Source of the DNA: a virus
Strand: one strand, 5' to 3'
Length of the DNA stretch: 64,000 nt
Virus record (IMG/VR): IMGVR_UViG_3300024255_001088
Under the pieces are notes generated by a model. That model was not told the origin of the DNA, ran no database searches, and saw nothing but the letters and a program-made list of their open reading frames with translations. Positions 35,312 to 51,150 of the stretch are shown in pieces. How positions within the stretch are numbered: the first letter of the stretch is position 1; each line of letters starts with the position of its first letter. Both the position numbers and the translations under genes were made by a program.

Positions 35312-36901
35312 ATGTCAGACGATATTTTTATAAAACATGATAAGAATGGTGGAACTTTTCAGCAACCCTTTTTAGCCAGAGTACCTGCAACCGGTCAACA
35401 ACCGAATATCGCACAAAGAATTTATCAGGTTACTACTCAAGGAACACAACCATTTACATATCAAAGTAGAACACCTACAAATGTTCAGACGCCTAGTAAT
35501 GCACAAAATCCAATAATTGCTCAAGGTATCGCACAAACAACTTATCAACATAGGTCGCCTGCTATATACACAAGTAGGGCGCCTTCAATATACAATATTC
35601 AAACACCTTCTACATATCAACATAGAAGTCCTTTGATATATCAACATAGGTCACCGTTTACTTATCAGTTAAATTATCAACATAGAGAACCTTCTACATA
35701 TCAACATAGAAGTCCTTTGATATATCGTACACCGACTCAGACTAGAACGCCTAGCATCTATACAAATAGACAACCTTTAACATATGAACATAGAAGTCCT
35801 TTTACATATGACCACAGAAGTCCTTTAACATATGACCACAGAAGTCCTTCTCGAACACCTTCTACATATCAAAATAGACAACCTTTAATATATGACCATA
35901 GGTCGCCTTATCAAAGTCCGTTTACTTATCAACATAGAAGTCCGTTGATATATGACCATAGGTCGCCTTCTACATACGATAATAGAGAACCTAGTATCTA
36001 TCAACATAGAAGTCCAGACACTTATCAGCATCAATCGCCGAGTACTTATCAGCATAGGTCACCGTCTCAGAGTCCGTTTACATACGACCATAGGTCACCA
36101 TTTACATATGACCATAGGTCACCGTCTCAGAGTCCGTTTACATACGACCATAGGTCACCATTTACATATGACCATAGGTCGCCTTATCAAAGTCCGTTTA
36201 CATACGACCATAGGTCACCATTTACATATGACCATAGGTCACCATTTACAACTCCAGTAATTGTTAATACACAAAGCTCAAGAAATGCACGAACACCGTT
36301 TATCTTTAGTGAATTACAACAGCAAAACATTGGTACTACGACTGCTCCATATGCTGAAGTTCATTGTGAGATGTCACTTATAGATTCTAGCGGTCGAGAA
36401 CCTTGGATTGTATTATATTGTGTTGAATCAAGTAATGATGTTAATGTATATGTTTATGCTTCAGCTGATGCATTTGGACTTCCTGATGCATATCTGAAAG
36501 AAACAAATACCGGCGGTACTCAAAATGGTCAGGATCAAAACATTGAAGAAAATAGTGATGTTCTTCTATACAAAATAGACGATGCTGGAACTAATTATTC
36601 TGTTGCTAGAAGTACCTCTACTCATGGTACCTTCAATGAGGGTACTCTGAGCGGAAACATTTCTGGAGGCACTGCAATAACTAGCACTTCTTGGACTTAT
36701 GGTACAACTAATGGTACTTTTACCAAGTGGAAATGTGATAATGCTAACTCTGGAGATGTTAAGGAGTACGAGACAACTAATACATTTACATTTACAAGTC
36801 CAGATGCTAATATGGGAACTCATACAATAACGCTAAAAGTGAATCTGTATTACGAAAACGAACAACCAGAAGAAGATGAAGAAGAAAATGACCAGGAGTA
36901 A
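35312..36901 (+). CDS. Repeat filament protein A (PxTYxHRS array plus ~200-aa C-terminal domain)
   Basis: 310-aa proline-punctuated array (aa 19-328), then a non-repetitive domain with an acidic tail. Confidence 0.85.
   Translation: MSDDIFIKHDKNGGTFQQPFLARVPATGQQPNIAQRIYQVTTQGTQPFTYQSRTPTNVQTPSNAQNPIIAQGIAQTTYQHRSPAIYTSRAPSIYNIQTPSTYQHRSPLIYQHRSPFTYQLNYQHREPSTYQHRSPLIYRTPTQTRTPSIYTNRQPLTYEHRSPFTYDHRSPLTYDHRSPSRTPSTYQNRQPLIYDHRSPYQSPFTYQHRSPLIYDHRSPSTYDNREPSIYQHRSPDTYQHQSPSTYQHRSPSQSPFTYDHRSPFTYDHRSPSQSPFTYDHRSPFTYDHRSPYQSPFTYDHRSPFTYDHRSPFTTPVIVNTQSSRNARTPFIFSELQQQNIGTTTAPYAEVHCEMSLIDSSGREPWIVLYCVESSNDVNVYVYASADAFGLPDAYLKETNTGGTQNGQDQNIEENSDVLLYKIDDAGTNYSVARSTSTHGTFNEGTLSGNISGGTAITSTSWTYGTTNGTFTKWKCDNANSGDVKEYETTNTFTFTSPDANMGTHTITLKVNLYYENEQPEEDEEENDQE
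35366..36295 (+). repeat. Coding repeat array A
   Basis: Mostly 24-bp units such as ccatttacatatgaccataggtca; all Pro-to-Pro units are of even length. Confidence 0.9.
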
Positions 36902-36907
36902 TGTGAT

Positions 36908-38002
36908 ATGCCAGTAGGACAACAACCATCCATATACCAACATCCTATTGCTACACAGGCGCAACAACCAGCGCAACAACCTAATATTAGAAACAAACAA
37001 CACCCTGTTATTAGAAACAAACAGGAAAGTAATCAAGAACCTAATATTAGAAACAAACAACACCCTGTTATTAGAAACAAACAGGAAAGTAATCAAAATC
37101 CTGTTATTAGAAACAAACAAGAACCTAATATTAGAAGCAAACAGGAAAGTAATCAAAATCCTGTTATTAGAAACAAACAACATCCGTTTATTAGAGACAG
37201 ACAAAATCCGGTTGAAAGAGCTCATCAAACTCCTTATACTGCAAATAAACAAAATCCTGTTATTAGAGACCAACAGGTGCCTAGTATAAGAAACGCCCAA
37301 CAGAATGCTCAAGAACCTAATATTAGAAGCGCTCAAAGTCCTTACATCGCAGATGCACAAGCGAATACGCAGAATCCTTTTATTAGAAATCAACAAGAAC
37401 CTAATATTAGAAGCAAACAGGAATCTGTTATAAGAAACAAACAGTCTGCTTATCAAGCGAGTAAACAAACTCCTTCTATAACAAGAACACCAGCGAGTCA
37501 ACAAGAACCTAATATTAGAAGCGCACAAACACCTTCTATTAGACAAGCGCTTAAAAATAAACAACAACCTAATATTAGAAGTCAACAAGAACCTAATATT
37601 AGAAATAAGAGAACACCTTCAGCACATAACGCACAATATCTTAATACTCACAATAGACAAGACCCTGTTATTAGAAGACAACCATTTACATATCCTTTCT
37701 CATATAGAAGTCCTTCTACTTACAGACATCCTACTATTGGTCAACAACCATATATTGCACAAGGTCAGGCTTCTTATAGTTTTCAACAAAACAGACAACA
37801 ACCATATGGATTCAGGTCTCCGTTTATATTTCAAGCAACAGAGAACTCTAATCGACCAATAACGCCAGTTGCAAAAGTGAAAGGAGTCTTTATAAAAGAT
37901 AGTGATGGTGTTGTAAAAGCTTCAACTAAAGTCTTTGTTAAGAAAGATAGTTCAACAGTTGAGAAAATTCATCAGGTACCTGCTTTGCCGTTTGACGAAT
38001 AG
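36908..38002 (+). CDS. Repeat filament protein B (PNIRxxQE array), mirror partner of A
   Basis: 310-aa array (aa 7-316); C-terminal VKGVFIK...KVFVKK motif. Confidence 0.85.
   Translation: MPVGQQPSIYQHPIATQAQQPAQQPNIRNKQHPVIRNKQESNQEPNIRNKQHPVIRNKQESNQNPVIRNKQEPNIRSKQESNQNPVIRNKQHPFIRDRQNPVERAHQTPYTANKQNPVIRDQQVPSIRNAQQNAQEPNIRSAQSPYIADAQANTQNPFIRNQQEPNIRSKQESVIRNKQSAYQASKQTPSITRTPASQQEPNIRSAQTPSIRQALKNKQQPNIRSQQEPNIRNKRTPSAHNAQYLNTHNRQDPVIRRQPFTYPFSYRSPSTYRHPTIGQQPYIAQGQASYSFQQNRQQPYGFRSPFIFQATENSNRPITPVAKVKGVFIKDSDGVVKASTKVFVKKDSSTVEKIHQVPALPFDE
36926..37855 (+). repeat. Coding repeat array B
   Basis: cctaatattagaaacaaacaa-type units. Confidence 0.9.
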
Positions 38003-38019
38003 GATGACTAAATAGTAAT

Positions 38020-38352
38020 ATGGCTATAATCGCAAATTTATTTATCGACCAGGGAACAGACTTTACAGTTGCTGTAGATGTTTCCGATGCAACAGGAAGC
38101 GTTTTAAATCTCTCTGGTTATTCATCAGCAGGACAAATAAGAAAGACATACGGTTCTTCAACCATATCTGCCACATTTGCTACCAGTAATGAGAACGCTA
38201 CAGGTAAAGTGACATTATCTTTGACTGATACTCAAACATCAGCATTAGAACCTGGAAGATATGTGTATGATATGAACATAACAAGTGCTGGTGGTATAAC
38301 AACAAGAGTTGTAGAAGGTCAAGCAATAGTCACACCAGGAGTAACCAGATAA
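38020..38352 (+). CDS. Virion structural adaptor protein
   Basis: ANLFIDQGTDF...GRYVYD...RVVEG...VTPGVT; CTAAATA upstream. Confidence 0.75.
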   Translation: MAIIANLFIDQGTDFTVAVDVSDATGSVLNLSGYSSAGQIRKTYGSSTISATFATSNENATGKVTLSLTDTQTSALEPGRYVYDMNITSAGGITTRVVEGQAIVTPGVTR

Positions 38353-38591
38353 TGGCAATAAAAGGCGTAGTATCAAGAGTCGCTACTATAGGTGGCGTAT
38401 TATCCAACACAACAAATCTAAGAGCAAAACAAGTGACTGTTGGTTCTCAATCCGGTACTGATATCAGTGCAAAATCTATCAACGAACTTTCAGATGTAAA
38501 TGCATCGGAAACAGATGATGGTCTTCTCTCATATGACCAGTCAACTGATAAGTGGACAACCACCACTACGATAGACGGCGGAACATTCTAA
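38352..38591 (+). CDS. Small fibre-associated protein
   Basis: INELSDVN...LLSYDQSTDKW, ends IDGGTF. Confidence 0.7.
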   Translation: MAIKGVVSRVATIGGVLSNTTNLRAKQVTVGSQSGTDISAKSINELSDVNASETDDGLLSYDQSTDKWTTTTTIDGGTF

Positions 38592-38617
38592 AACACTAAA
38601 TAATAGTACAAATCAAG

Positions 38618-38698
38618 GTTGTCGACCAGTGAGACAACGACCCTCATTGTGAGAGGACAGTTTTATATTATGTATTCACGACTCAGGAGTGCTGAGTC
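38618..38698 (+). promoter_or_regulatory. Structured 5' leader (three hairpins) upstream of a fibre gene
   Basis: GTTGTC/GACAAC, CTCA/TGAG and GACTCAG/CTGAGTC stems, downstream of CTAAATA. Confidence 0.45.
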
Positions 38699-38733
38699 AC
38701 AACAATTAATTTAATTTTTATAGGAAAATAAAA

Positions 38734-40368
38734 ATGGCAACAGTAATTCAAATCAAAAGAAGTACAGGCGCATCTGCTCCGGCGATATCAGATTTATCGG
38801 AAGGTGAATTGGCGTATGTACAAGATAGAAGTAATTCTGGTGCATCTGCTAAACTATTCATCGAATCAGTAGATTCAGATAATTCTACAGCCCTAATCCA
38901 TGCGATTGGTGGTAAGTATTATACTGATATGCTTTCTGGTTCTTCAGCAACACCTGCTAACTTTAAAGTTGGTAATGGTTCTACTGCTGGTGCAACTTTA
39001 CAAATCATGGAAGATTCCGATAACGGAACAAACTTCGTTGGTCTTAAAGCTGCAGATACTCTTGGTTCTTCAGTAACCTTCACGCTGCCTACCGCAGACG
39101 GTTCTGCTAACCAAGTTATAGCAACAGATGGTTCAGGAAATCTTTCTTTCGCTTCAACAACTTCAACCCTTGCTGGTGGTAGTGATGTAAACATCACATC
39201 TGCTGCTGATGGTGCGATGTTATTATATGATACAGGAACATCAAAATGGATTGACAATGTAATGTCTGGTGACGCCACTATGGCCGACACAGGTGTTATG
39301 ACAATCGCAAACAACGCTATCAACGCTGCTAAATTAGCAGATGATGCAGTAGATACTGCAGCTATCTTAGATAGTAATGTGACATTAGATAAGATTAACT
39401 TCTTTGTAGACGAAGACAACATGGCTTCTAACTCAGCAGTTAAAGTTCCTTCTCAACAATCAGTAAAAGCATATGTAGACAGTAGTGTAACCGCTTCAGA
39501 CTTAGATATGGCTGGTGACAGTGGAACAGGTGCAGTAGACTTAGACTCTCAGTCACTAACAATCGCTGGTACAGCAAACGAGATTGAAACATCAATGTCA
39601 GGACAAACTTTAACAGTTGGTCTTCCAAACAATGTGACAGTCGCAAATAACTTAACAGTTTCAGGAAACTTAATATCAGACGATATTACAACTGCAACTT
39701 TAACAACATCTGGTAACTTAACAGTCACAGGAAACTTGGCAGTTAATGGTACTACAACAACAGTAAACTCAACAACAGTAAATATCGCTGACCCTGTATT
39801 CGAAATTGGTTCAGATAGTTCAGACGATAACCTAGACAGAGGTATTAAATTTAAGTACAACTCCGGTGGTGCTAAAATTGGTTTCTTTGGTATGGATGAT
39901 ACAGATGGTTCTTTTGTCGCTCTAACAAGTGCAACAGATAGTTCTTCAGTATTCTCTGGTACTGCAATGGCAGGTAAATTCGGTGACTTAACAGCTGCTG
40001 GTTTAGCAATGAGTGGAAGTATTTCTTCTTATGCAGGTTCAGCTCCTACAGATGGTCAAGTCTTAATTGGTGACACATCTTCAGGTTTAATGGACGCTGC
40101 TACTCTTACTGCTGGTGATGGTATTGATATCACTAATGGTGCAGGTGCAATTACGATTGCTGCTGAAGTATCAACTGCTTCTAACTTAGGTTCTGTAATT
40201 GTCGCTGCTGGCGAAGGTATGGATGTAGCGTACTCAGGTGGTACAGCAACCATTACTGGAGAAGATGCAACGACATCTAATAAAGGTATCGCTAGTTTTG
40301 CTAGTGCTAACTTTACAGTATCAAGTGGTGCAGTTACCATTACTGCTATTGACGGTGGAACATTTTAA
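38734..40368 (+). CDS. Tail fibre protein (Mtd_N-like N-terminus)
   Basis: MATVIQIKRS...GELA; FTLPTADG; QQSVKAYVD; ends IDGGTF. Confidence 0.75.
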   Translation: MATVIQIKRSTGASAPAISDLSEGELAYVQDRSNSGASAKLFIESVDSDNSTALIHAIGGKYYTDMLSGSSATPANFKVGNGSTAGATLQIMEDSDNGTNFVGLKAADTLGSSVTFTLPTADGSANQVIATDGSGNLSFASTTSTLAGGSDVNITSAADGAMLLYDTGTSKWIDNVMSGDATMADTGVMTIANNAINAAKLADDAVDTAAILDSNVTLDKINFFVDEDNMASNSAVKVPSQQSVKAYVDSSVTASDLDMAGDSGTGAVDLDSQSLTIAGTANEIETSMSGQTLTVGLPNNVTVANNLTVSGNLISDDITTATLTTSGNLTVTGNLAVNGTTTTVNSTTVNIADPVFEIGSDSSDDNLDRGIKFKYNSGGAKIGFFGMDDTDGSFVALTSATDSSSVFSGTAMAGKFGDLTAAGLAMSGSISSYAGSAPTDGQVLIGDTSSGLMDAATLTAGDGIDITNGAGAITIAAEVSTASNLGSVIVAAGEGMDVAYSGGTATITGEDATTSNKGIASFASANFTVSSGAVTITAIDGGTF

Positions 40369-40405
40369 TTAATATTCTTTAACACACTTTCAATAGGAGA
40401 TAGAA

Positions 40406-41230
40406 ATGGCAACAGTTATACAGTTTAAAAGAAGTTCGACTCAGAACGCAGTTCCTAGTACTGGTGATTTATCACTAGGGGAACTGGCTGTCAATACTTA
40501 TCACGGTAGATTTTATACCGAGAAAAATGATGGTTCCGCTGCTGTTGTAGAGATTGGGTCTAACCCAAAAACTCTACAAATTAATGACGCTATAACATTT
40601 CCAACCAGTGATGGTTCAAATGGACAAGTTCTTCAGACCAATGGTTCAGGAATAGTTTCATTTGCAACTTTAGGTGGTTCAGGTGTTTCAATTTACAAAT
40701 ACACCGTTTCGGGTAACCAAACTGTATTTACAGGTAATGATGATGACAGTAATGCATTGTCTTACACTGTAGGTTCAGAACAAGTATTCCTTAATGGTGT
40801 TAAGTTAGTTGATGCTGGTGCAGATTATACTGCAACCAACACCACGACAATCACACTGGAAGAAAATGCAATTGCAGGTGATACAGTAGAAGTAGTAGCA
40901 GTTACCGCTGCTAATTTAGTACAAGGATACTATACAAATAGTGTCTTTAGTGCAACTACTGCTAATCAAGTATTATCAAGCAATGCAGTATCTAATAAAG
41001 GTATTAAATATGTTATTACTGCCACTCATGCGAGTGCAGGAACACATTCAGCCGAAGTATTATTAATCAATGATGGATCCAATGCATATTTCGTTCAATA
41101 TGGCGATATATTCAGTACTGCTTCATTATTTTCGTTGACAGCTGATGTTAATTCAGGAAACATGAGACTCTTATGTACACCTGCTAACACCAACACAACG
41201 GTTAATACTTTCCAAATAAGACAATCATAG
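40406..41230 (+). CDS. Tail fibre-associated protein
   Basis: MATVIQFKRS...GELAVN; FPTSDG; VFLNGVKL; C-terminal domain shared with the next two genes. Confidence 0.75.
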   Translation: MATVIQFKRSSTQNAVPSTGDLSLGELAVNTYHGRFYTEKNDGSAAVVEIGSNPKTLQINDAITFPTSDGSNGQVLQTNGSGIVSFATLGGSGVSIYKYTVSGNQTVFTGNDDDSNALSYTVGSEQVFLNGVKLVDAGADYTATNTTTITLEENAIAGDTVEVVAVTAANLVQGYYTNSVFSATTANQVLSSNAVSNKGIKYVITATHASAGTHSAEVLLINDGSNAYFVQYGDIFSTASLFSLTADVNSGNMRLLCTPANTNTTVNTFQIRQS

Positions 41231-41241
41231 GGGGATAGAAA

Positions 41242-41652
41242 ATGGCTATAACAAGAAGTTTTAAACTCGCTGAATTCATCCGTCACATGTCTTATAACTC
41301 TAGTACAGATAGAATAGAAACAGGTAAAGAGATTCAAGACGAGAATACAACAACAGGTGGTATCACTAAAACTGCTACTACTGAATTCTCACTTGATACC
41401 TTTGCTCATGCTACCTATAGAGCTGCGAGATATATCGTGGCGATGTCAGAGGGAAGTAATTTCCACTCAACAGAGATAATGTTAGTACATGACGGTTCTA
41501 CCGTGACATTAACACAATACGGAACGCTTAAAGATACTAACTTAGCGACATTTGATGCAGACATTAATGGAGACAATGTTAGACTACTATGTACACCGGC
41601 GGGTACAAACTCAACGGTTATTAAGTTTAACAGAACTACAGTCGAAGCTTAA
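41242..41652 (+). CDS. Virion structural protein, paralogue of the 40406/41731 C-terminal domain
   Basis: YRAARY...STEIMLVHDG...TQYG...FDADIN...VRLLCTP. Confidence 0.75.
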   Translation: MAITRSFKLAEFIRHMSYNSSTDRIETGKEIQDENTTTGGITKTATTEFSLDTFAHATYRAARYIVAMSEGSNFHSTEIMLVHDGSTVTLTQYGTLKDTNLATFDADINGDNVRLLCTPAGTNSTVIKFNRTTVEA

Positions 41653-41670
41653 ATTCAGTAATATATTATG

Positions 41671-41701
41671 AAAAGGGGGACTTTAGAGTCCCCTTTTTTT
41701 T
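41671..41701 (+). terminator. Intrinsic terminator, possibly bidirectional
   Basis: AAAAGGGGGACT-TTAG-AGTCCCCTTTTTTTT. Confidence 0.85.
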
Positions 41702-41730
41702 GTCGGTAGATAAATTACATAAATAACACC

Positions 41731-42549
41731 ATGGCATCGAAAGTAAAATTTTTCGCAGATTTAGGTGTACAGTCAAAACTAAACACTCAAGTAGATGGCG
41801 ATTTAACAGTTGCAGGTGACTTAACGGTTACAGGGACAACTTTAACAGTCAATTCTACAACGACATCTGTTGGCGACTCAATGTTTGAGTTCGCAAATCA
41901 AAATACTAGTTCAGACCTAATCGATATTGGTTTCTACGGAAACTACAACGATGGTTTATCAGATGGTGGTGCATCTGAGTACACAGGTCTATTCAGAGAT
42001 GCATCGGATTCTACATGGACATTATTTGATGGTTTAGAGGTAGAACCAGGAACTACAGTTAATACTGGTGGTTCGGGTTACGCACTTGCTGATTTAAAAC
42101 TTGGAGATTTAACTTCTTCAACACTAACAGCAGGTGGATTATTATATCCAACTTCAGATGGTTCTAACAACCAAGTCTTAATGACTAATGGTTCTGGTAC
42201 TTTATCTTTCCAAGATGCTGGTTCAGGACTTACTTCTGGTACAGTGACTACAACATCGACTACTATCACAAATTTAGATACAATGGCGATTGCAAGTTAT
42301 AGAGGTGCAAAGTATACTATAACAGTCTCAGACGCTACTGGTGGTGATTATGAGATAACAGAGGTTCATGTAATACACGATGGTACTAACGCAAGTATAA
42401 CGCAGTTTGGTACAGTCCTACAAGGTACATCTAGTGAGTTAGGAAGTTTCTCAGTAGATATCAACTCAGGCAATCTCAGATTGAGAGTCACTTCTGCCAG
42501 TACAAACTCCACAGTTTATAATTTTAAGCGAATAGACCACGCTGTATAA
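41731..42549 (+). CDS. Tail fibre-associated protein
   Basis: GDLTVTGT repeats, YPTSDG, shared C-terminal domain (YRGAKY...HDG...TQFG). Confidence 0.75.
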   Translation: MASKVKFFADLGVQSKLNTQVDGDLTVAGDLTVTGTTLTVNSTTTSVGDSMFEFANQNTSSDLIDIGFYGNYNDGLSDGGASEYTGLFRDASDSTWTLFDGLEVEPGTTVNTGGSGYALADLKLGDLTSSTLTAGGLLYPTSDGSNNQVLMTNGSGTLSFQDAGSGLTSGTVTTTSTTITNLDTMAIASYRGAKYTITVSDATGGDYEITEVHVIHDGTNASITQFGTVLQGTSSELGSFSVDINSGNLRLRVTSASTNSTVYNFKRIDHAV

Positions 42550-42609
42550 AATAGTTATAACTAATTGAATTTTATTAGGGAAAATGAGGTCTTTAGAACG
42601 ACACCAATC

Positions 42610-42617
42610 TATAAATA
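42610..42617 (+). promoter_or_regulatory. T4-type late promoter
   Basis: TATAAATA. Confidence 0.75.
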
Positions 42618-42658
42618 ATAGTATTAATTACTAATACTTTTACAAAAGGACATAAGAA

Positions 42659-42877
42659 ATGGCAACAACACAAACATTTGTAATCGAGTATGGGTTATCA
42701 GTAGGGTCATCTGAAGTCATAAATTCAAGTGGAAAAATCGTACCAGGTGCGTTATCCAATGTGGATTCAGACGACATAACAGAAGGCTCAACTAATCTGT
42801 ATATGACTACTTCAAGATTCAACTCTGCATTTGATACGAGACTATCTAACGCCACTATTGATGGAGGCACTATCTAA
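42659..42877 (+). CDS. Small fibre-associated protein
   Basis: FVIEYGLSVG, DDITEGSTNLY, ends IDGGTI. Confidence 0.7.
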   Translation: MATTQTFVIEYGLSVGSSEVINSSGKIVPGALSNVDSDDITEGSTNLYMTTSRFNSAFDTRLSNATIDGGTI

Positions 42878-45354
42878 TGACAAGTAAAAATTTCATAATC
42901 AAAAATGGTCTAACAGTAGGAACTACTGAGGTCATAACATCTGCTGGTTTAATTACTGGCGCAGCTGTCAACGAGGCAGTTGACGATAGAGTTGATTCTC
43001 TATTAACTGCTGGAACAGGTATCTCATTAACATATGATGACACTGCTGGCACACTAACAATTAACGGACAACAAGGTGACATCACAGGTGTGAACGCTGG
43101 TGCTGGTTTAACTGGTACTGCAAGTTCAGGTGATGCAACACTAAACATTGGTGCTGGTACAGGTATTACTGTAAATGCAGACGATATTGCAGTCAACTTC
43201 AAAGATGAAGATGACATGTCTTCAAACTCAGCAACTCATGCCGCTACTCAACAATCAATTAAAGCATATGTTGACGCTCAAGTTGCAACAGTTCCGACTG
43301 GAGACATAACAAGTGTAGTCTCAGGAACTGGTCTAACAGGTGGCGGAACAAGTGGCGATGTCACTGTAAATGTTGTTGCAGGTAATGGTCTTATCGCAAA
43401 CGCAGACGATGTGACAATCGATACTTCGATAACAGCAGATTTAACTACTGCACAAACTTTAACTAACAAAACATTAACGACTCCAATTCTAAATGGAACA
43501 ATTTCGGGTACTGCTGTCTTAGACCAAGACAACATGTCTTCTAATAGTAATACTCATCTTGCAACACAACAATCAATCAAGGCATATGTAGACTCTTCAG
43601 TTGCAGGTAAAGATAATACAGACGAGATTACAGAAGGTTCAAGTAACCTATACTTCACAAATGAAAGAGTAGACGATAGAGTAGATGCTCTACTAACTTC
43701 TGGTGTCAATGTCGCTATGACATATGACGATGCAAATGGAAGTTTAGAGATTAGAGTACCTTATGAGAATATACAAGATACAGTTGGCGCTCAGATTGCA
43801 ACCAATGGTTCACATACAGGTCTTACTGCAACATATGATGATGCAGGTGACGGCGCTGTAGACCTTGCAGTATCAACATCACATGTTAGGGGTTTAATAT
43901 CTGCTGGTGGTGACTTATCATACAACAGTTCAACAGGTGTAATTAGTTTCACAAACGATGCTGGTGATATCTCTTCAGTAGTTGCTGGAACTGGTATGAC
44001 TGGTGGGGGAACTTCTGGTGATGTGACAGTCAATGTTATTGGGGGAGACGGTATTACTGCAAACGCAAATGATATCGCATTGTCTTCTTCAGTCGCTGGT
44101 GATGGTCTTTCATTCTCAAGTGGTGTTCTTGCAGTAGGGGTTGACGATAGTTCTATAGAAACAAGTTCAGATACATTACAAGTGAAAGCACTTGGTGTCA
44201 CAAATGCCATGTTGGCAGGTTCAATTGCTGAAGGCAAACTTGCAGGTGGTATTTCAAACGCAAAACTTGCTAACTCATCCATAACAATAGACGGAAGTGC
44301 TGTTTCATTGGGTGGTTCAATAACTACTACAAATACACAACTTACACAAGAACAAGTCGAAGACTTTGTTGGTGGTATGTTAGATGGTACCGAAACAGGT
44401 ATCTCTGTATCATACGATGATACAAATGGTAATCTTGACTTTGTTATTGGCGCTGACGACATTACTAACGATATGTTGGCAGGGTCAATTAATCAATCCA
44501 AACTTGCAGGTTCAATTGCAAACGCAAAACTTGCTAATAGTACGATAACAATTGATGGACAATCAGTTGCATTGGGTGGTTCAGTCACAACAACTAACAC
44601 TCAATTATCAACAGAGAATGTACAAGATATCGCTGGGGCGATGTTCTCAAGTAATACTGAAAGTGGTATTACTGCAACATATCAAGATGCAGATGGTACA
44701 ATCGATTTGAATGTTAATGACCCAACAATATCCTTGACAGGCGATGTGACAGGTTCTGCTACAATGACCAATTTAGGTAATGTTAGTATCTCTACTACAG
44801 TCGCTGCTAACTCAGTCGCACTTGGAACAGATACAACAGGTAACTATGTCGCAGGTGTAAGTGCAGGAACTGGTGTCTCAGTAAGTGGTTCTGGAGAAGG
44901 TGCAACATCAACAGTATCTATTGGACAGGCAGTTGGAACATCAAGTAATGTTCAATTTGGAAACTTAGTTCTCACAGGCGACTTAACAGTTAATGGTTCA
45001 ACAGTAACCAACTCTTCAACAAATACAACTATCGAAGACCAACTTATAGAGTTAGGGACAGGTAATAGTGGTTCTGCTTCAGGCGATGCAGGTTTTGTTA
45101 TCGAAAGAGGAAGTGATGCCAATGTATTTATTGGTTGGGATGAAAGTGCTGATGCAGTCACATTCGGAACAGGAACATTTACAGGTGCATCAACAGGTGA
45201 TTTAACGATTACACCAAGTGCAGTAAACACTGGCGCATTGACAATTACAAATGCAACAAACAGTGGTGGCACAGCGAGAAACATACATCAGTCAACATCA
45301 GCTCCAGGCGGAAGTGATGGCGCAGTTGGCGATTTATGGGTTCTTTACTCTTAA
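42877..45354 (+). CDS. Long tail fibre protein (fibre of cassette 2)
   Basis: Repeated GDITSVxAGTGLTGGGTSGDVT, QQSIKAYVD and KLANS modules; ends STSAPGGSDGAVGDLWVLYS. Confidence 0.8.
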   Translation: MTSKNFIIKNGLTVGTTEVITSAGLITGAAVNEAVDDRVDSLLTAGTGISLTYDDTAGTLTINGQQGDITGVNAGAGLTGTASSGDATLNIGAGTGITVNADDIAVNFKDEDDMSSNSATHAATQQSIKAYVDAQVATVPTGDITSVVSGTGLTGGGTSGDVTVNVVAGNGLIANADDVTIDTSITADLTTAQTLTNKTLTTPILNGTISGTAVLDQDNMSSNSNTHLATQQSIKAYVDSSVAGKDNTDEITEGSSNLYFTNERVDDRVDALLTSGVNVAMTYDDANGSLEIRVPYENIQDTVGAQIATNGSHTGLTATYDDAGDGAVDLAVSTSHVRGLISAGGDLSYNSSTGVISFTNDAGDISSVVAGTGMTGGGTSGDVTVNVIGGDGITANANDIALSSSVAGDGLSFSSGVLAVGVDDSSIETSSDTLQVKALGVTNAMLAGSIAEGKLAGGISNAKLANSSITIDGSAVSLGGSITTTNTQLTQEQVEDFVGGMLDGTETGISVSYDDTNGNLDFVIGADDITNDMLAGSINQSKLAGSIANAKLANSTITIDGQSVALGGSVTTTNTQLSTENVQDIAGAMFSSNTESGITATYQDADGTIDLNVNDPTISLTGDVTGSATMTNLGNVSISTTVAANSVALGTDTTGNYVAGVSAGTGVSVSGSGEGATSTVSIGQAVGTSSNVQFGNLVLTGDLTVNGSTVTNSSTNTTIEDQLIELGTGNSGSASGDAGFVIERGSDANVFIGWDESADAVTFGTGTFTGASTGDLTITPSAVNTGALTITNATNSGGTARNIHQSTSAPGGSDGAVGDLWVLYS

Positions 45355-45386
45355 TAAATAGAATAGTATTTTAAGGACTATATAAT

Positions 45387-47489
45387 ATGGCGACAGGCTC
45401 ACAAAAGGTAAAAACACCAACAGGTTGGAATAGTACCCGAGGTGCATGGGTAAAAACAGACTCAGGCACATGGAAAGCTGCTGACCAGATTTATGTAAAA
45501 ACACCTACAGGTTGGAACAATGCTTCTGGACAACAGAGTGTTCAACAACCTTACCCTTATATCGCAAACGCACAAGAACCCAATATAAGAAACAAACAGA
45601 ATCCTTATCCTTATATTGCAAACGCACAAGAACCTAATATAAGAAACAAACAGAATCCTTATCCTTATATTGCTAATGCACAAGAACCTAATATTAGAGA
45701 TAGAAGACAACCTGCGATTTATCAAAATCCAGTAAATGCACAAGAACCTAATATTAGAAATCAACAAGAACCTAATATTAGGTCACAACAAGAACCTAAT
45801 ATTAGAGATGCTAGACAACCTGGTACATATCAACATAGGTCACCTAGTACATATAGAGACCCTCGTTCATATCAGAATCCTTCTACATATAATCATAGAA
45901 GTCCGTTGACATATCAACATAGAAGTCCGTTGACATATCAACATAGGTCACCATTTATATATCAACATAGGTCACCTTCTACATATAGTAATAGACAACC
46001 TAGTACATATCAACATAGGTCGCCTTATAGAAGTCCGTTTATCTATCAACATAGAAGTCCGTTGACATATGACCACAGGTCTCCTTTAATATATCGTAAT
46101 CCGTTTACTTATAATCACAGGTCTCCTTTAACATATGACCATAGGTCACCTTATCAAAGTCCATTTACTTACGACCATAGAAGTCCGTTGACATATCAAC
46201 ATAGGTCACCTTATAGAAGTCCGTTCACTTATCAACATAGAAGTCCGTTGACTTATCAACATCAGTCACCGAGTATTTACCAGAATCCAAGTACCTATCA
46301 GAACAGACAACCTAGTACTTATCAGCATCAGTCGCCAAGTATTTACCAGAATCCTAGTACTTACGACAATAGACAACCTAGTAGTTATCAGCATCAGTCG
46401 CCAAGTATTTACCAGAATCCGAGTACTTACAACAATAGACAACCTGGTACATATGACCATAGGTCACCTTATAGAAGTCCGTTCACTTATCAACATAGGT
46501 CACCATTTACATATGACCATAGGTCGCCGTTTACATATCGTAATCCGTTTACTTATAACCATAGGTCGCCTACTACATATAATCACAGGTCACCATATAC
46601 ATATGACCATAGGTCGCCTAGTACATACAATCACAGGTCACCTAGTACATATCAGGCAAGACAACCTAACGCTGCTAGAAACCCATTTAGTGCAAGACAA
46701 CCGTTCACTTATCAGGCAAGAGAACCTAATACATATAATCATAGGTCGCCTAGTACATACCAAGCAAGACAACCGAATAGTGCTAGACAACCATTTAGTG
46801 CGAGACAACCGTTCACTTATCAGGCAAGACAACCAAACTCTGCTAGAAACCCATTTAGTGGAAGAAATCCTTTCACTTATCAGGCAAGGTCGCCTTCGAT
46901 TGCAAACAATAGGTCTCCTGCAACTTATTCATTCAGAATGCCGTTTACCTTTGGTGGTGGAGGAGGAGGCGGAGGTTGCTTCGCTCCAGGTTCAATGATA
47001 TGGTTAGGCGATGGTTCACATGCACCTATCGAGTCATGTGTTGTTGGTCAATGGGTCATGTCTTGGAACGAAAGTACTAAATTACTTGAACCTAAGAGAA
47101 TACAACAAATTAATCCTCAGCCAATCAGTTCTATATGGGATATAACATTCTCAGATGGTAGAATTCTACAGATGACTGATACTCACCCATTGATGTTACC
47201 AAATGGTGAATGGGGTGCATTTGATATTGAGAAATCAGTAAAAGAACATTGGTGGATGGAAGATATAGAAACACATGAACTTAAAGTTGGAGATAGTATA
47301 TTCAGTATGTTAGATGGCATAATGTTTGATAGACAAGATGAAATGGGACTAGAGATAGTATCAATAGAAGAACACTCAGAAATGGAAGTTTATAACTTAA
47401 CTGGTATTGAAGATAACTCGAACTTCTTTGTTAATGGCATGTTAGCACATAACTTTAACAATCTACCTATTCCTGTAGGACAAAAATAA
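45387..47489 (+). CDS. Repeat filament protein C with C-terminal Hint domain
   Basis: N-terminal VKTPTGW repeats, 464-aa array (aa 55-518), Gly8 linker, Hint domain. Confidence 0.88.
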   Translation: MATGSQKVKTPTGWNSTRGAWVKTDSGTWKAADQIYVKTPTGWNNASGQQSVQQPYPYIANAQEPNIRNKQNPYPYIANAQEPNIRNKQNPYPYIANAQEPNIRDRRQPAIYQNPVNAQEPNIRNQQEPNIRSQQEPNIRDARQPGTYQHRSPSTYRDPRSYQNPSTYNHRSPLTYQHRSPLTYQHRSPFIYQHRSPSTYSNRQPSTYQHRSPYRSPFIYQHRSPLTYDHRSPLIYRNPFTYNHRSPLTYDHRSPYQSPFTYDHRSPLTYQHRSPYRSPFTYQHRSPLTYQHQSPSIYQNPSTYQNRQPSTYQHQSPSIYQNPSTYDNRQPSSYQHQSPSIYQNPSTYNNRQPGTYDHRSPYRSPFTYQHRSPFTYDHRSPFTYRNPFTYNHRSPTTYNHRSPYTYDHRSPSTYNHRSPSTYQARQPNAARNPFSARQPFTYQAREPNTYNHRSPSTYQARQPNSARQPFSARQPFTYQARQPNSARNPFSGRNPFTYQARSPSIANNRSPATYSFRMPFTFGGGGGGGGCFAPGSMIWLGDGSHAPIESCVVGQWVMSWNESTKLLEPKRIQQINPQPISSIWDITFSDGRILQMTDTHPLMLPNGEWGAFDIEKSVKEHWWMEDIETHELKVGDSIFSMLDGIMFDRQDEMGLEIVSIEEHSEMEVYNLTGIEDNSNFFVNGMLAHNFNNLPIPVGQK
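45549..46940 (+). repeat. Coding repeat array C
   Basis: 66 Pro-initiated units of 2, 4, 6 or 8 aa. Confidence 0.9.
46977..47453 (+). other. Hint (intein-like / BIL) auto-processing domain
   Basis: Block A CFAPGSMI, block B TDTHP, block F VYNL, block G FFVNGMLAHN; +1 residue is Phe. Confidence 0.9.
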
Positions 47490-47529
47490 TGAAGATGATA
47501 ATTAAATTAAGAGTAGGGAGTAAAATCTA

Positions 47530-48996
47530 ATGCCACAGCAACCTCTAATTGGACTTGCTCAATCGCCAAGTACTTCTAATGTGCAAACTCCGTATATTGC
47601 TAATGGCCAGCAACCTTATACTGGTCAACAACCATATACATATCAGTCGCCATATATTGCATCTGGTCAGACTCCTTATACTGGTCAGACTCCTTATACT
47701 TACCAGAGTCCTTATATTGCGAATAATCAACAACCCAATATTAGAAGTTATCAAAGTCCGTATATTGCGAATGGTCAGACTCCTTATACTGGTCAACAAC
47801 CTTATACTTTCCAGAGTCCATACATTGCGAATAATCAAGAACCTAATATAAGGAACAATCAGGAACCCAATATTAGAAGCATACAAGAACCTAATATTAG
47901 AAACCAACAAGAACCTAATATTAGAGATGCTCAGTCACCTAGTAATGCTCAGCAACCTACAATTAAGAACAAACAAGAACCTAATATTCGTTCAGCGCAA
48001 CAGTCAGCACAAGAACCAAATATCAGAAACTTTCAGACTCCTTACATTGCTAATGCACAAGGGGCTAGTGCAGCTCAAGAACCTAATATCAGAAATGCAC
48101 AAACACCTTATATTGCAAACAGACAAAACACTGCAAATGCACAAGAACCTAATATTAGAAACAGACAAACACCTTATATTGCAAACAGACAAACCACTTC
48201 AAATGCACAAGAACCAAACATAAGGTCACAACAAGAACCTAATATTCGTTCAGCGCAAGCGTCAGCACAAGAACCAAACATAAGGTCACAACAAGAACCT
48301 AATATTAGAAACAAACAGCAGAGTGCTCAACAACCTACTATTAAGAACCAACAGGAACCTAATATTAGAGATGCTCAGTCACCTAGTAATGCTCAGCAAC
48401 CTAATATTAGAAGTCAACAAGAACCTAATATTCGTTCAGGTCAAACGGTAACGCAAGAACCTAATATTAGAGACAGACAAACACCTTATATTGCTAATGC
48501 ACAAAATCCGTTTATTAGAAATGCTCAAGAACCAAACATAAGGTCACAACAAGAACCTAATATTAGAGCTCAACAAGAACCTAATATTAGAAACAGACAA
48601 ACAACAGCGAGCTATCAGAATCCTGTAAATGCTCAGAATCCGTTTATAAGAAATAATCAGACTCCATTTACATATGACCATAGAAGTCCGTTGACATATG
48701 ACCACAGGTCTCCTTTAACATATGACCATAGAAGTCCGTTTACTTACAGAAATCCTGCAAATAGTCAGACACCTCTTACATATCAACATCAGAGTCCTTC
48801 TACATATGCTAGACAAGGTCAAACACCAACGACTTATCAACATAGAAGTCCTTCTACATATGCTAGACAAGGTCAGACACCAACGACTTATCAACATAGG
48901 TCACCTAGTACATATGCTAGACAAGGTCAAACACCTGTTATCCGTTGGGATGGTTCATTGTCACAAACATGGCCAGGAACACCTGTTAATTCTTAA
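47530..48996 (+). CDS. Repeat filament protein D, mirror partner of C
   Basis: 464-aa array (aa 5-468), C-terminal RWDGSLSQTWP. Confidence 0.88.
   Translation: MPQQPLIGLAQSPSTSNVQTPYIANGQQPYTGQQPYTYQSPYIASGQTPYTGQTPYTYQSPYIANNQQPNIRSYQSPYIANGQTPYTGQQPYTFQSPYIANNQEPNIRNNQEPNIRSIQEPNIRNQQEPNIRDAQSPSNAQQPTIKNKQEPNIRSAQQSAQEPNIRNFQTPYIANAQGASAAQEPNIRNAQTPYIANRQNTANAQEPNIRNRQTPYIANRQTTSNAQEPNIRSQQEPNIRSAQASAQEPNIRSQQEPNIRNKQQSAQQPTIKNQQEPNIRDAQSPSNAQQPNIRSQQEPNIRSGQTVTQEPNIRDRQTPYIANAQNPFIRNAQEPNIRSQQEPNIRAQQEPNIRNRQTTASYQNPVNAQNPFIRNNQTPFTYDHRSPLTYDHRSPLTYDHRSPFTYRNPANSQTPLTYQHQSPSTYARQGQTPTTYQHRSPSTYARQGQTPTTYQHRSPSTYARQGQTPVIRWDGSLSQTWPGTPVNS
47542..48933 (+). repeat. Coding repeat array D
   Basis: 55 Pro-initiated units of 6-14 aa. 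Confidence 0.9.
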
Positions 48997-49033: not shown

Positions 49034-50581
49034 ATGAGCGTAAAATCAGACTCACTCGAGCACACAAAGGAACTTCTCAAAGATTGGGATCCAACAGATA
49101 AGAACACACATGTTCAGTTGGGTTCTTTTGATGTATCAAAAGATTATAAAGAAACAGAAGCATATAAATCTTTAAAATGGGTGACAGCGAACAAAACAGG
49201 AAAATTAAAACAGGTCAAATGGGGTGATATGACTAAGTTAATCAAGGAACAAAAGTTTCTTGGTTGGAACAAACTACAATCTCATTCATGGGCATATCAT
49301 TACTTTCTTTCTAAAGGATACACTGCACCACCCGAAAATCCAAAACCAGGAATTGCAGGTATGGATTTTAAAAATTCAAATGATGAATATCAAAAGATAG
49401 AAGAATTCACAGATACTAAGTTAAGCGAACAACAAGATTCTAGTCTTAATGCTGTATATTATCATGGTGCAAAGGCACATTGGTTAGTCGATAGTATCAG
49501 AAAAGAAGGTCTATGGAATGCAATTCAAGGCACTGTATCTACAGCAGGTATGAACTCCAGAGATGAACGAATGTATCAGTTATCTATACATCCAGGTTCT
49601 GTTCGTTCAGGTGTTTTCGAAACTATGAATGACCCAGACTTAGATTTATGGATATGGGATAACCACGATGCTATACCTCTTCCAGAAACACCTATAGATG
49701 AAATGATTGACGAAATGAAGTCGCAACTTGTAGAAAGAAATGCAGACCACTACTCAATGTCGTTTTCATTCACTCGTGGATATTTAGAAATACATAGTGA
49801 CTTATTGAAGATGAACTTCAGAGGAGATGTGACAGACTTCAATAAAAAAGTAAATAAACTTTCTGCTGGCAAACCCTTGACAATCTATGTCGGATATGAT
49901 AGTAGACACAAAGACATTGCAGAACTAAGTGCTAAATGTCTTAAGAGTAGTATATTATTTGGAGCAGGTCATGGTGATGTACATGATATATTAGGAGATT
50001 GGACTCCTGAGATAAAGTTTCTTGACATATCAAAGATTCCAGAGTATAATAGAGAGTATGCAGCTCAATCAACAGAGTTCACATATAGTAGATTCTTAAT
50101 TCCTTACTTAGAAAACTATGAAGGATTTAGTATTTTTATTGATGATGATATACTATTCAATGAAAGTATCTTACCAATGTTCTACTATTTAGATTTAGAT
50201 GATGCAGTTGCATGTGTTCAGTATGATTTTGATACTTATGCTGAAACAAAATTTAACGGTGAAAAGAATGTATCTTATCCTAAAAAACTTTGGTCATCAT
50301 TAATGATATTTAATAATGGTCACGAAGACTGTAAGAAACTTACGCCAGAAGTTATCAATACTGAAAGTGGTAAATATCTACATCAATTTGAATGGACAGA
50401 TAAGATATCAGAAATACCAGAATGGTATGTTATAACTGAGGGGCATGATACGCAAGAAGAAAAGTGGCGTGCTTGTGCTATACATTATACTAGAGGTGGT
50501 CCTTGGATTGAAGGCATGGATACTTCTGAAATAGAACACCTAAATATGTATGAAAGATTTAAAAATAAACATCAAAACTAG
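49034..50581 (+). CDS. Two-domain protein: ParB/Srx-like N-terminal domain plus GT-A glycosyltransferase
   Basis: IYVGYDSR, STEFTYSRFLIPYL, FIDDD (DxD), WSSLMIFN, LHQFEW, HYTRGGPW. Confidence 0.8.
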   Translation: MSVKSDSLEHTKELLKDWDPTDKNTHVQLGSFDVSKDYKETEAYKSLKWVTANKTGKLKQVKWGDMTKLIKEQKFLGWNKLQSHSWAYHYFLSKGYTAPPENPKPGIAGMDFKNSNDEYQKIEEFTDTKLSEQQDSSLNAVYYHGAKAHWLVDSIRKEGLWNAIQGTVSTAGMNSRDERMYQLSIHPGSVRSGVFETMNDPDLDLWIWDNHDAIPLPETPIDEMIDEMKSQLVERNADHYSMSFSFTRGYLEIHSDLLKMNFRGDVTDFNKKVNKLSAGKPLTIYVGYDSRHKDIAELSAKCLKSSILFGAGHGDVHDILGDWTPEIKFLDISKIPEYNREYAAQSTEFTYSRFLIPYLENYEGFSIFIDDDILFNESILPMFYYLDLDDAVACVQYDFDTYAETKFNGEKNVSYPKKLWSSLMIFNNGHEDCKKLTPEVINTESGKYLHQFEWTDKISEIPEWYVITEGHDTQEEKWRACAIHYTRGGPWIEGMDTSEIEHLNMYERFKNKHQN

Positions 50582-50595
50582 ATTATGGAGTTATT

Positions 50596-51147
50596 ATGAA
50601 TATGTTAATTTATTGTGAGAATGGTCATCTTACTATTAGAAAACCAAATGGCCTAGAATGGAGACATGATAATGTCGATAAACCTAATTTAGGGTTTGAG
50701 TATGATGTTCTTATCTATGATGACATCGAAGTCAAGATTATGGAATGGAAAGAAAATGTTCAGTTTGATGAACAAGAAAAAATTTCATTAACAGATGTTG
50801 AGTTAGATGCAATCGAAAACTACATTCAAAATTCTGTTCCACCTTCCGATGTGACATTATCCAATCAATACAGTCAACAAATTAATGATGTTGGTAAAGA
50901 TTACTTAGACCAACAAATTCAAACTTATGGATTTGAAAGTCTGGTAGATGTTATGGCTGCAGGTAGAGATGGTTCAAATCATCCTTTAAGGTCAGATGCA
51001 AGAAGAGTATTAGAATACTATGATGTGATGTGGAACATCTATGTAAATATTATGAATGATGTAAAATCAACTAGAGAAGATTTACTTCCAGATGTAGAAG
51101 AATATATTAATAGATTCCCACCGCCACAAAAAGCATTAATAGAGTAG
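50596..51147 (+). CDS. Hypothetical protein (possible fibre assembly factor)
   Basis: 183-aa ORF with GGAG RBS; no clear motif. Confidence 0.55.
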   Translation: MNMLIYCENGHLTIRKPNGLEWRHDNVDKPNLGFEYDVLIYDDIEVKIMEWKENVQFDEQEKISLTDVELDAIENYIQNSVPPSDVTLSNQYSQQINDVGKDYLDQQIQTYGFESLVDVMAAGRDGSNHPLRSDARRVLEYYDVMWNIYVNIMNDVKSTREDLLPDVEEYINRFPPPQKALIE

Positions 51148-51150
51148 TTT

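What the first reader, a model, noticed from the sequence alone, without database searches (positions are those of the whole stretch)
35366..48933. Residue-level complementarity code between facing repeat units
Seen, by hand alignment in mirrored register where position i of an 8-mer faces position 8-i. In C/D all 30 PxI(R/K) units face PxxYxH(R/Q)S units (mostly N2-H6, R4-Y4). All 9 PYIA units of D face His-less PxTYx(A/N)R units (Y2-A/N6). Position 6 versus partner position 2 tends to be size-compensated: G/A opposite F, Q opposite L, N/R opposite S, Y/F opposite N/G, with some exceptions. The same tendencies hold in A/B: PYTANKQN faces PSTYDNRE, PVIRDQQV faces PLIYDHRS, and the only Asp at position 2 (PDTYQHQS) faces Arg (PFIRDRQN). 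Inference: a base-pair-like cross-strand code that might be usable for programmable heterodimers.
Basis: partly seen in the sequence, partly recalled or inferred. Interest (0 to 1): 0.88.

Follow-up and report, generated by a model that had tools for sequence, protein, structure and literature searches.

The report
Mirror-coded two-protein phage fibre duplex
Two pairs of neighbouring genes in an uncultured marine T4-like phage encode repeat proteins that complement each other residue by residue when one is read backwards; facing residues co-vary across dozens of relatives, which points to an apparently undescribed sequence-coded antiparallel protein duplex.

Summary
One ungapped antiparallel register (i+j=522 for C/D, 334 for A/B) puts all 67 prolines of C opposite Q or R of D, and 55 of 56 the other way.

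All 30 PxI(R/K) units face His-bearing PxxYxH units. All 9 PYIA units of D face His-less units. The A/B examples are correct.

About 30 distinct homologous gene pairs from marine viral contigs keep the same rule. Cognate pairs score 0.90-1.05, non-cognate pairs have a median of 0.50, self-pairing scores about 0.5 and parallel pairing 0.42.

Over 624 facing unit pairs, mutual information peaks at the mirrored positions. T2-i6 gives 1.25 bits against 0.17-0.22 after unit shifts; T6-i2 gives 1.00.

In 10 disjoint orthologue contrasts, T2 changed 52 times and i6 changed with it 44 times (odds ratio 37).

The code is degenerate and has clade dialects: F faces A or G in most clades, and K in A/B. 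"Base-pair-like" therefore overstates it.

Physical pairing and the beta-ribbon geometry are inferred, not shown. The complex prediction gave no verdict.

No Pfam, PHROG, PDB or literature match exists for the repeats. The scan had already found this family on other genomes, and follow-up agents there reached similar conclusions.

The parts
35312..36901 (+). Gene A (529 aa). Outgoing chain of pair 1. Residues 19-328 (nt 35366-36295) are T-type units PxTYxHRS with 4- and 6-residue inserts. Residues 329-529 are a non-repeat distal domain.
   Evidence: No Pfam or PHROG hit. The distal domain has one homologue cluster only.
36908..38002 (+). Gene B (364 aa). Returning chain of pair 1. Residues 2-316 (nt 36911-37855) are i-type units P(N/V)IRNKQE. 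The short C-terminal domain lies opposite the N-terminus of A.
   Evidence: The antiparallel register i+j=334 gives 35 P-Q pairs against 24 for the next diagonal.
45387..47489 (+). Gene C (700 aa). Outgoing chain of pair 2. Its parts are a conserved N-terminal anchor (residues 1-54), i-type and PYIA units (55-144), T-type units (145-522; the whole repeat is nt 45549-46952), a Gly8 linker (nt 46953-46976), a Hint/intein-like domain from Cys531 to Asn689 (nt 46977-47453), and an 11-residue tail.
47530..48996 (+). Gene D (488 aa). Returning chain of pair 2. PYIA and PNIR units occupy residues 2-378 and T-type units residues 379-468 (the repeat is nt 47533-48933). A conserved C-terminal tail lies opposite the anchor of C.
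   Evidence: At i+j=522, 55 of 56 Pro face R or Q of C.

Best explanation
A with B, and C with D, each pair one-to-one and antiparallel along their whole repeat regions (about 310 and 465 residues), so that residue i of the upstream chain lies against residue S-i of the downstream chain.

Both chains are extended, beta-type strands. All unit lengths are even, and every proline sits on the same parity and faces Gln or Arg. This fits placement in the pair sites of a two-stranded antiparallel ribbon that do not hydrogen-bond across the strands.

Partner and register are set at three levels:

1. Mirrored irregular unit lengths (4, 6, 8, 10, 12, 14).

2. Two complementary unit types. T (PxTYxHRS) always faces i (PxI[R/A]xxQx).

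3. Side-chain complementarity on the even face. T6/T8 pair with i2/i4: His opposite Asn and Arg, while Asn, Ala or Arg lie opposite Tyr and Ala. T2 pairs with i6/i8: F with A/G/K, L with Q, S with A/N/R, T with R/K/Q, G or A with S.

The duplex is most likely the shaft of a host-recognition fibre. The upstream chain runs out to a distal domain or a processed end, and the downstream chain runs back to the anchor.

Shown: the register, the unit complementarity, the covariation, and their conservation in relatives. Inferred: physical binding, beta geometry, stoichiometry and presence in the virion.
For: - Register: a single ungapped antiparallel diagonal explains 67 of 67 and 55 of 56 prolines in C/D, and 39 of 40 and 33 of 35 in A/B.
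- About 30 distinct homologous pairs of different length do the same. Mean scores are cognate 0.97, X-X 0.49, Y-Y 0.57, parallel 0.42; the non-cognate median is 0.50.
- Where T and i units interleave along a chain (L019, L029, L056), the partner is the exact complement. Of 637 facing pairs, 624 are T:i and none is T:T.
- P-P spacings are even 1771 times and odd 106 times. All Pro in the window's repeats lie on one parity.
- MI is 1.25 bits for T2-i6, 1.00 for T6-i2 and 0.93 for T6-i4, against 0.17-0.38 after unit shifts. The facing odd-position pairs carry almost none (0-0.12 bits).
- Within one unit class and one protein pair, MI is 1.48 against a shuffle maximum of 0.32. On unique unit pairs it is 1.49.
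- In 10 disjoint orthologue contrasts (247 unit pairs), T2 and i6 changed together 44 times, T2 alone 8, i6 alone 25 (OR 37, p=9e-23). With a strict filter the counts are 22, 8 and 22 (OR 17, p=2e-10).
- The same code holds whichever chain carries the T unit.
- Coupling is lateral (k=0, 1.25 bits) plus one-sided diagonal (k=+2, 0.83 bits; 0.55 conditional on k=0 against a null of 0.13; k=-2, 0.21 bits). By my own knowledge this is expected in a twisted antiparallel sheet.
- A code learnt from other clades scores the window's true registers best.
- The genes lie in the fibre-rich host-recognition cluster of a pelagimyophage-like genome (PMC7029224).
Against: - No structural or binding evidence exists. 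The repeats have no relative in the PDB.
- No natural fused out-and-back chain was found (weak evidence).
- The strong size anticorrelation at T2-i6 would fit face-to-face packing as well as in-plane pairing.
- Phage fibres are normally trimeric, so a lone two-stranded ribbon may be the wrong stoichiometry.
- Facing units are partly co-amplified copies, which inflates raw counts.
- The code has dialects. Under a code learnt from other clades, A/B scores negative in absolute terms (-1.56 bits per unit), although its true register is still the best one.
Confidence: 0.75

Rival explanations
1. The same out-and-back pairing, but as a trimer of heterodimers (3X+3Y). This would be a six-stranded antiparallel needle like the distal needle of T4 gp37. 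The conserved odd face would pack around the three-fold axis, and the covarying even face would make the X-Y contact.
For: [quoted passage not shown]
- Phage fibres are generally trimers (own knowledge).
- Positions 1, 3 and 7 on the odd face are nearly invariant in both unit types, as expected for a second, conserved interface.
- The neighbouring genes are fibre-like.
Against: - There is no HxH motif, only one His per T unit.
- The repeats have no sequence relation to any PDB chain.
- The odd face is mostly polar (P, T/I, R/Q).
- The free 4- and 6-residue inserts seem easier to fit in a ribbon than in a packed needle (inference).
Confidence: 0.3
2. The residue-level association is a by-product of history. 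Facing units were co-amplified by mirrored tandem duplications, so identical pairs recur without any residue-specific contact. On this view only matched lengths are selected.
For: TRF finds tandem DNA arrays of the same period and copy number at mirror positions in partner genes: 60 nt x3.2 in A and x3.8 in B; 54 x2.8 in C and x2.9 in D; 66 x3.1 and x3.2; 108 x2.0 and x1.8.
Against: - MI on unique unit-pair types is unchanged (1.49).
- Coupled substitutions occur between orthologues, with OR 17-37.
- In 13 of 22 strict double changes, both the old and the new pair belong to the code learnt from other clades.
- The same pairs recur in clades of different architecture and in both chain orientations.
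Confidence: 0.1
3. The mirror relation is a relic of DNA. One gene arose from the antisense strand of the other, so facing residues were once encoded by complementary codons (sense-antisense peptides). On this view the "code" reflects the genetic code rather than contacts.
For: - In-frame identity of one gene to the reverse complement of its partner is the highest of 61 offsets (0.355 and 0.338).
- Across 18 pairs, codon positions 1/2/3 match at 0.37/0.26/0.39 against about 0.27/0.19/0.27 in shifted registers.
- Antisense-compatible residue pairs make up 24% against 14-19% in shifted registers.
- L-Q, S-R, G-S, F-K, Y-I, R-P and D-I are sense-antisense pairs.
Against: - The excess is small, and the register shifted by -1 also reaches 24%.
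- The commonest pairs (F-A, H-N, Y-R, P-Q) are not antisense pairs.
- The two genes are co-directional, and no inverted DNA repeat links them.
- Ongoing coupled substitutions need selection on the proteins.
Confidence: 0.05

Closest known systems
Needle domain of the T4 long tail fibre tip, gp37
   Same: Extended strands run out to a distal tip and back, antiparallel, forming a long thin shaft in a host-recognition fibre of a T4-like phage (PMC7291167).
   Different: In gp37 the outgoing and returning strands belong to one chain of a homotrimer. It uses His-x-His metal sites (own knowledge) and has no octapeptide unit code. Here the two directions are separate gene products, with complementary unit types, no HxH, and no detectable sequence relation.
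Stalk of streptococcal antigen I/II (SpaP/SspB)
   Same: Two different repeat regions associate antiparallel to form a long narrow stalk that holds a distal domain (own knowledge; Larson et al. 2010 PNAS, not read here).
   Different: There an Ala-rich alpha-helix wraps a Pro-rich PPII helix within one polypeptide. Here there are two polypeptides with residue-for-residue equal length, a periodicity of 2, and proline every 4-10 residues in both chains, which excludes long helices.
Heterodimeric coiled-coil pairing codes (a/d core, e/g salt bridges)
   Same: A periodic repeat in which a few positions per unit decide partner and orientation. Orthogonal pairs coexist in one cell, as A/B and C/D do here.
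   Different: Those are alpha-helical heptads. Here the units are proline-punctuated 8-residue units of beta type, register is additionally set by mirrored irregular unit lengths, and the length reaches about 465 residues.
Triple-stranded beta-helix of T4 gp5 C-terminal domain (VxGxxxxx octapeptides)
   Same: An octapeptide repeat in a T4-like structural protein (own knowledge).
   Different: That helix is a parallel homotrimer with strict periodicity. Here the arrangement is an antiparallel heteropair, with no V-x-G motif and with frequent 4-, 6-, 10-, 12- and 14-residue units.

Membership tests
T4 gp37-type needle | Outgoing and returning strands lie in one polypeptide | tested here: not met
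   There are two separate adjacent genes in every locus. No relative of 855-2440 aa was found.
T4 gp37-type needle | His-x-His metal-binding motifs along the needle (own knowledge) | tested here: not met
   T units carry one His (Y-x-H-R), and i units carry almost none.
T4 gp37-type needle | Sequence relation to solved gp37 chains | tested here: not met
   phmmer against the PDB found nothing for D. For C it found only a weak intein hit to the Hint domain.
T4 gp37-type needle | Homotrimeric assembly | not testable with these tools
   Stoichiometry cannot be read from sequence.
T4 gp5 triple beta-helix | Regular VxGxxxxx octapeptides in parallel chains | tested here: not met
   There is no V-x-G motif. 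Unit lengths are irregular. The best parallel register scores 0.42 against 0.97 for antiparallel.
Collagen-like / PPII triple helix | Three-residue periodicity with Gly every third residue | tested here: not met
   P-P spacings are even 1771 times and odd 106 times. Gly is not among the ten commonest residues of any of the four repeat regions.
Antigen I/II stalk | Ala-rich helical repeats pairing with Pro-rich repeats of one chain | tested here: not met
   Both partners have Pro every 4-10 residues, and they are two chains of equal residue count.
Intein / Hint domain (C-terminal part of C only) | N-terminal Cys/Ser nucleophile, TxxH block, C-terminal His-Asn | tested here: met
   Cys531 follows Gly8. 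T597-x-x-H600 and H688-N689 are present, and all are invariant in 5 orthologues. Pfam Intein_splicing scores 31.1 bits, below the 35.8 cut-off.
Intein / Hint domain (C-terminal part of C only) | Cys/Ser/Thr at +1 of the C-extein, needed for canonical splicing | tested here: not met
   The +1 residue is Phe690 in the window and in all orthologues. The domain therefore resembles the bacterial intein-like autoprocessing type rather than a canonical intein (own knowledge).
Sense-antisense complementary peptides | Facing residues encoded by complementary codons | tested here: inconclusive
   24% of facing pairs are compatible, against 14-19% in shifted registers. Nucleotide identity to the reverse complement is 0.34-0.36.

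The most novel reading that the evidence does not exclude
These phages carry a natural, genetically encoded protein duplex. Two beta-type chains of arbitrary length recognise each other and set their register through complementary unit types and a small set of facing side-chain pairs. Many mutually orthogonal natural pairs already exist, often two per genome. If the rules transfer to short peptides, they would give a beta-strand counterpart to coiled-coil pairing codes for designing long, orthogonal heterodimers.
Probability: 0.5. Interest if true: 0.95.

Novelty: categorically new. Interest (0 to 1): 0.88.

Why it matters
Sequence-readable pairing rules are known for nucleic acids and for coiled coils, but not for extended beta-type chains. 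Here evolution appears to have run the experiment many times: hundreds of natural pairs of different length, two per genome in several phages, with coupled substitutions at facing positions.

If the pairing is physical, three things follow:

- A new fibre architecture for abundant marine phages.
- An explanation for how two paralogous fibres avoid mis-pairing in one infected cell.
- A ready-made data set for deriving and testing a beta-strand recognition code.

Tried and rejected
- Complex prediction of C 145-300 with D 222-377, with 5-row alignments, gave no verdict (score 0.00). The controls were not run.
- AlphaFold2 on the distal domain of A, as a single sequence, gave mean pLDDT 39 and is unusable. 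The Atlas feature search for that domain gave only low scores (0.76, PKD/Ig-like) and remains a lead only.
- megablast and tblastn against 50,697 GenBank phage records found nothing for A+B, for D, or for the anchor of C. One weak hit of C to Vibrio phage F23s1 lay on the strand opposite the annotated feature and was judged low-complexity noise.
- Pfam and PHROGs found nothing for the repeats.
- The search for fused forms of 855-2440 aa found none.
- No inverted DNA repeats link the partner genes.
- Searching the paper library for the repeat motifs returned no paper about these proteins. Two topical searches found no description of such a pair.
- The 251-aa ORF on the minus strand (36833-37588) was rejected as a gene. 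It lies wholly within the repeat-coding DNA of A and B.
Full report
**Context.** The window is part of a 140-kb IMG/VR virus record, estimated 77% complete. It has T4-type baseplate, sheath, portal and terminase genes. Its tail sheath is 52% identical to that of Pelagibacter phage Mosig.

The four genes lie among fibre-like genes, between the baseplate genes and the neck protein gene. This is the position of the "host recognition cluster" described for pelagimyophages (PMC7029224).

- A is at 35312-36901 and B at 36908-38002.
- C is at 45387-47489 and D at 47530-48996.
- All four encode proline-punctuated repeats of mostly 8 residues, with interspersed units of 4, 6, 10, 12 and 14 residues.
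- I call PxTYxHRS-like units T and PxI(R/A)xxQx-like units i.

**The register.** For every antiparallel diagonal (i+j=S) and every parallel one, I counted how often Pro of one chain faces Gln of the other.

| Pair | Best antiparallel diagonal | P-Q pairs | Next antiparallel | Best parallel |
|---|---|---|---|---|
| C/D | S=522 | 61 | 41 | 33 |
| A/B | S=334 | 35 | 24 | 23 |
| A/D, C/B (non-cognate) | none stands out | 22 or fewer | | |

- The alignments are ungapped over about 465 and 310 residues, and every irregular insert is mirrored.
- All 67 Pro of the C repeat face Q (61) or R (6). In D, 55 of 56 Pro face R or Q.
- Every Pro of A and C, and all but one each in B and D, lies on odd positions.

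Listing all proline-anchored facing units confirms each claim:

- All 30 PxI(R/K) units face PxxYxH(R/Q)S.
- All 9 PYIA units of D face PxTYx(A/N)R.
- The three A/B examples are correct.
- The position 2 against position 6 tendencies (F with A/G, L with Q, S with R/N/A, G or N with F or Y) are present.
- In the window alone, MI(T2;i6) is 1.60 bits in C/D (shuffle maximum 1.14, p<=2e-4) and 0.97 bits in A/B (p=0.002).

**Relatives.**

- D has more than 400 homologues in marine metagenomes and 73 loci in IMG/VR.
- Nearly every locus with enough DNA has an adjacent pair.
- In about 30 distinct pairs of different length, one ungapped antiparallel diagonal captures most of the prolines, for example 138 of 148.
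- Mean normalised scores are cognate 0.97, X-X 0.49, Y-Y 0.57 and parallel 0.42. The non-cognate median is 0.50, and only close orthologues approach the cognate values.
- Where T and i units interleave along a chain (L019, L029, L056), the partner shows the exact complement. Of 637 facing pairs, 624 are T:i and none is T:T.
- P-P spacings are even 1771 times and odd 106 times.
- A single hit in bacterial genome bins, a 121-kb contig labelled Sphingobacteriales MAG, also obeys the rule.

**Residue-level covariation.** This used 624 facing T:i pairs from 22 non-redundant protein pairs.

- The 8x8 MI matrix has its large cells at T2-i6 (1.25 bits), T6-i2 (1.00), T6-i4 (0.93), T8-i2 (1.01) and T2-i8 (0.83). 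After shifting the partner by 1-3 units these fall to 0.10-0.38. The facing odd-position pairs (1-7, 3-5, 5-3, 7-1) carry 0-0.12 bits.
- The tables are code-like but degenerate:

| T2 | facing i6 (counts) |
|---|---|
| F | A 247, G 42, K 9 |
| L | Q 65 of 67 |
| S | A 62, N 26, R 13 |
| T | R 18, K 9, Q 6 |
| G | S 19 |

| T6 | facing i2 / i4 |
|---|---|
| H | i2 N 256; i4 R 278 |
| N, A, R | i2 Y in 229 of 235; i4 A |

- Side-chain volumes anticorrelate at T2-i6 (rho -0.54) but not at T6-i2.
- Within one unit class and one protein pair, MI(T2;i6) is 1.48 against a shuffle maximum of 0.32. It is 1.49 on unique unit pairs.
- The code is the same whichever chain carries the T unit.

**Coupled substitutions.**

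- I used ten disjoint orthologue contrasts with 247 unit pairs, accepted only when the independent alignments of X and of Y agreed with the facing rule. T2 and i6 changed together 44 times, T2 alone 8 times and i6 alone 25 times (odds ratio 37, p=9e-23).
- Requiring the rest of both units to be nearly unchanged gives 22, 8 and 22 (odds ratio 17, p=2e-10). In 13 of those 22 double changes, both the old and the new pair belong to the code learnt from other clades.
- Lone i6 changes are mostly between synonyms of the code: A/G opposite F, A/N/R opposite S, K/R/Q opposite T.

**Geometry (inferred).**

- The sum rule i+j=S, the two-residue periodicity and the single parity of all prolines fit extended antiparallel strands, with Pro in pair sites that need no cross-strand hydrogen bond (own knowledge of sheet geometry).
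- T2 couples to the facing residue (k=0, 1.25 bits) and to the residue at k=+2 (0.83 bits; 0.55 conditional on k=0, null 0.13), but not to k=-2 (0.21 bits). This is the lateral plus one-sided diagonal pattern of twisted antiparallel sheets.
- Positions 1, 3 and 7 are nearly invariant in both unit types. Position 5 varies without a covarying partner. Positions 2, 6 and 8 (and 4 in i units) vary and covary.
- A fully extended duplex would be roughly 100 nm (A/B) and 150 nm (C/D) long. This is my estimate at about 3.3 Å per residue.
- Face-to-face packing or a trimeric six-stranded needle cannot be excluded.

**Limits of the "code".**

- It is not one-to-one: H(T2)=2.36 and H(i6)=2.44 bits, of which 1.25 are shared.
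- It has dialects. In A/B, F faces K seven times, which contradicts size compensation.
- Under a code learnt from other clades, A/B scores -1.56 bits per unit at its true register. That is still better than all shifted registers (-3.3 to -6.9).
- C/D scores +1.34 bits per unit against -4.1 to -5.4 in shifted registers.

**Rivals.**

- Co-amplification is real. Partner genes carry tandem DNA arrays of equal period and copy number at mirror positions. It does not explain the unique-pair MI or the coupled substitutions.
- An antisense origin gets weak support only: in-frame identity to the reverse complement is 0.34-0.36, and antisense-compatible residue pairs are 24% against 14-19%. No inverted repeat links the genes.

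**What is known.** The repeats match no Pfam, PHROG or PDB entry and no GenBank phage record, and no paper in the library describes the pair or its motifs. Earlier notes of this scan on other genomes describe the same family, and follow-up agents there reached similar conclusions. I repeated the tests independently on this window.

Noticed in passing
window 46953-47489 (C residues 523-700): C ends in Gly8, then a Hint/intein-like domain (Cys531, TDTH at 597-600, His688-Asn689), then Phe at +1 and an 11-residue tail. Homologues without the domain end directly in GGG plus about 8 residues (for example L019, L029, L032). The domain therefore looks like an autoprocessing insert at the distal end, next to the N-terminus of D. 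Whether it splices, cleaves or ligates is unknown.
   Followed up: partly
window 36053-36243 with 36974-37203; 45549-45698 with 48781-48935; 46251-46454 with 48005-48215; 46617-46834 with 47653-47849: Tandem DNA arrays of equal period (60, 54, 66, 108 nt) and nearly equal copy number lie at mirror positions in partner genes, at 80-96% identity. This implies recent matched expansions in two separate genes.
   Followed up: partly
window 35366-37855 and 45549-48933: In-frame identity of each gene to the reverse complement of its partner is the highest of 61 offsets (0.338 and 0.355). Several code pairs (L-Q, S-R, G-S, F-K, Y-I, R-P, D-I) are sense-antisense codon pairs. The excess over shifted registers is small.
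   Followed up: yes
window 35312-35365 (A residues 1-18) and 37856-38002 (B C-terminus): Beyond the repeats, the N-terminus of A (DDIFIKHDK) lies opposite a B segment that reads DSDKIFVGKVK when reversed. The antiparallel matching thus seems to continue into the anchor end.
   Followed up: no
window 36296-36898 (A residues 329-529): The distal domain of A has a single homologue cluster (85% identity) among 5.8 billion proteins. The orthologue in L068, whose aligned residues are 69% identical overall, ends in a different domain. This is the pattern of an exchangeable receptor-binding tip.
   Followed up: partly
window 49034-53393: Directly downstream of D lie a GT8-like glycosyltransferase and two 2OG-Fe(II) oxygenases (PF13640, PF13759). 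Their targets are unknown, and modification of the Pro/Ser/Thr/Tyr-rich chains is only a possibility.
   Followed up: partly
L083:2995-4787 (JAAXIF010000105.1, labelled Sphingobacteriales MAG): A 121-kb contig binned as a bacterial MAG carries a short pair in the order Y then X, with a Hint domain. It obeys the antiparallel rule (49 against 31 of 61 Pro). It is probably a phage contig in a bin.
   Followed up: partly
IMG/VR contigs behind L020/L048, L025/L050, L036/L065, L032/L066, L012/L067, L013/L068: Several related viral contigs carry two different zipper pairs, as this window does. Coexistence of two pairs that must stay orthogonal is therefore common.
   Followed up: no
window 36833-37588, minus strand: A 251-aa open frame lies opposite A and B, wholly within the repeat-coding DNA, and is not a likely gene.
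   Followed up: no
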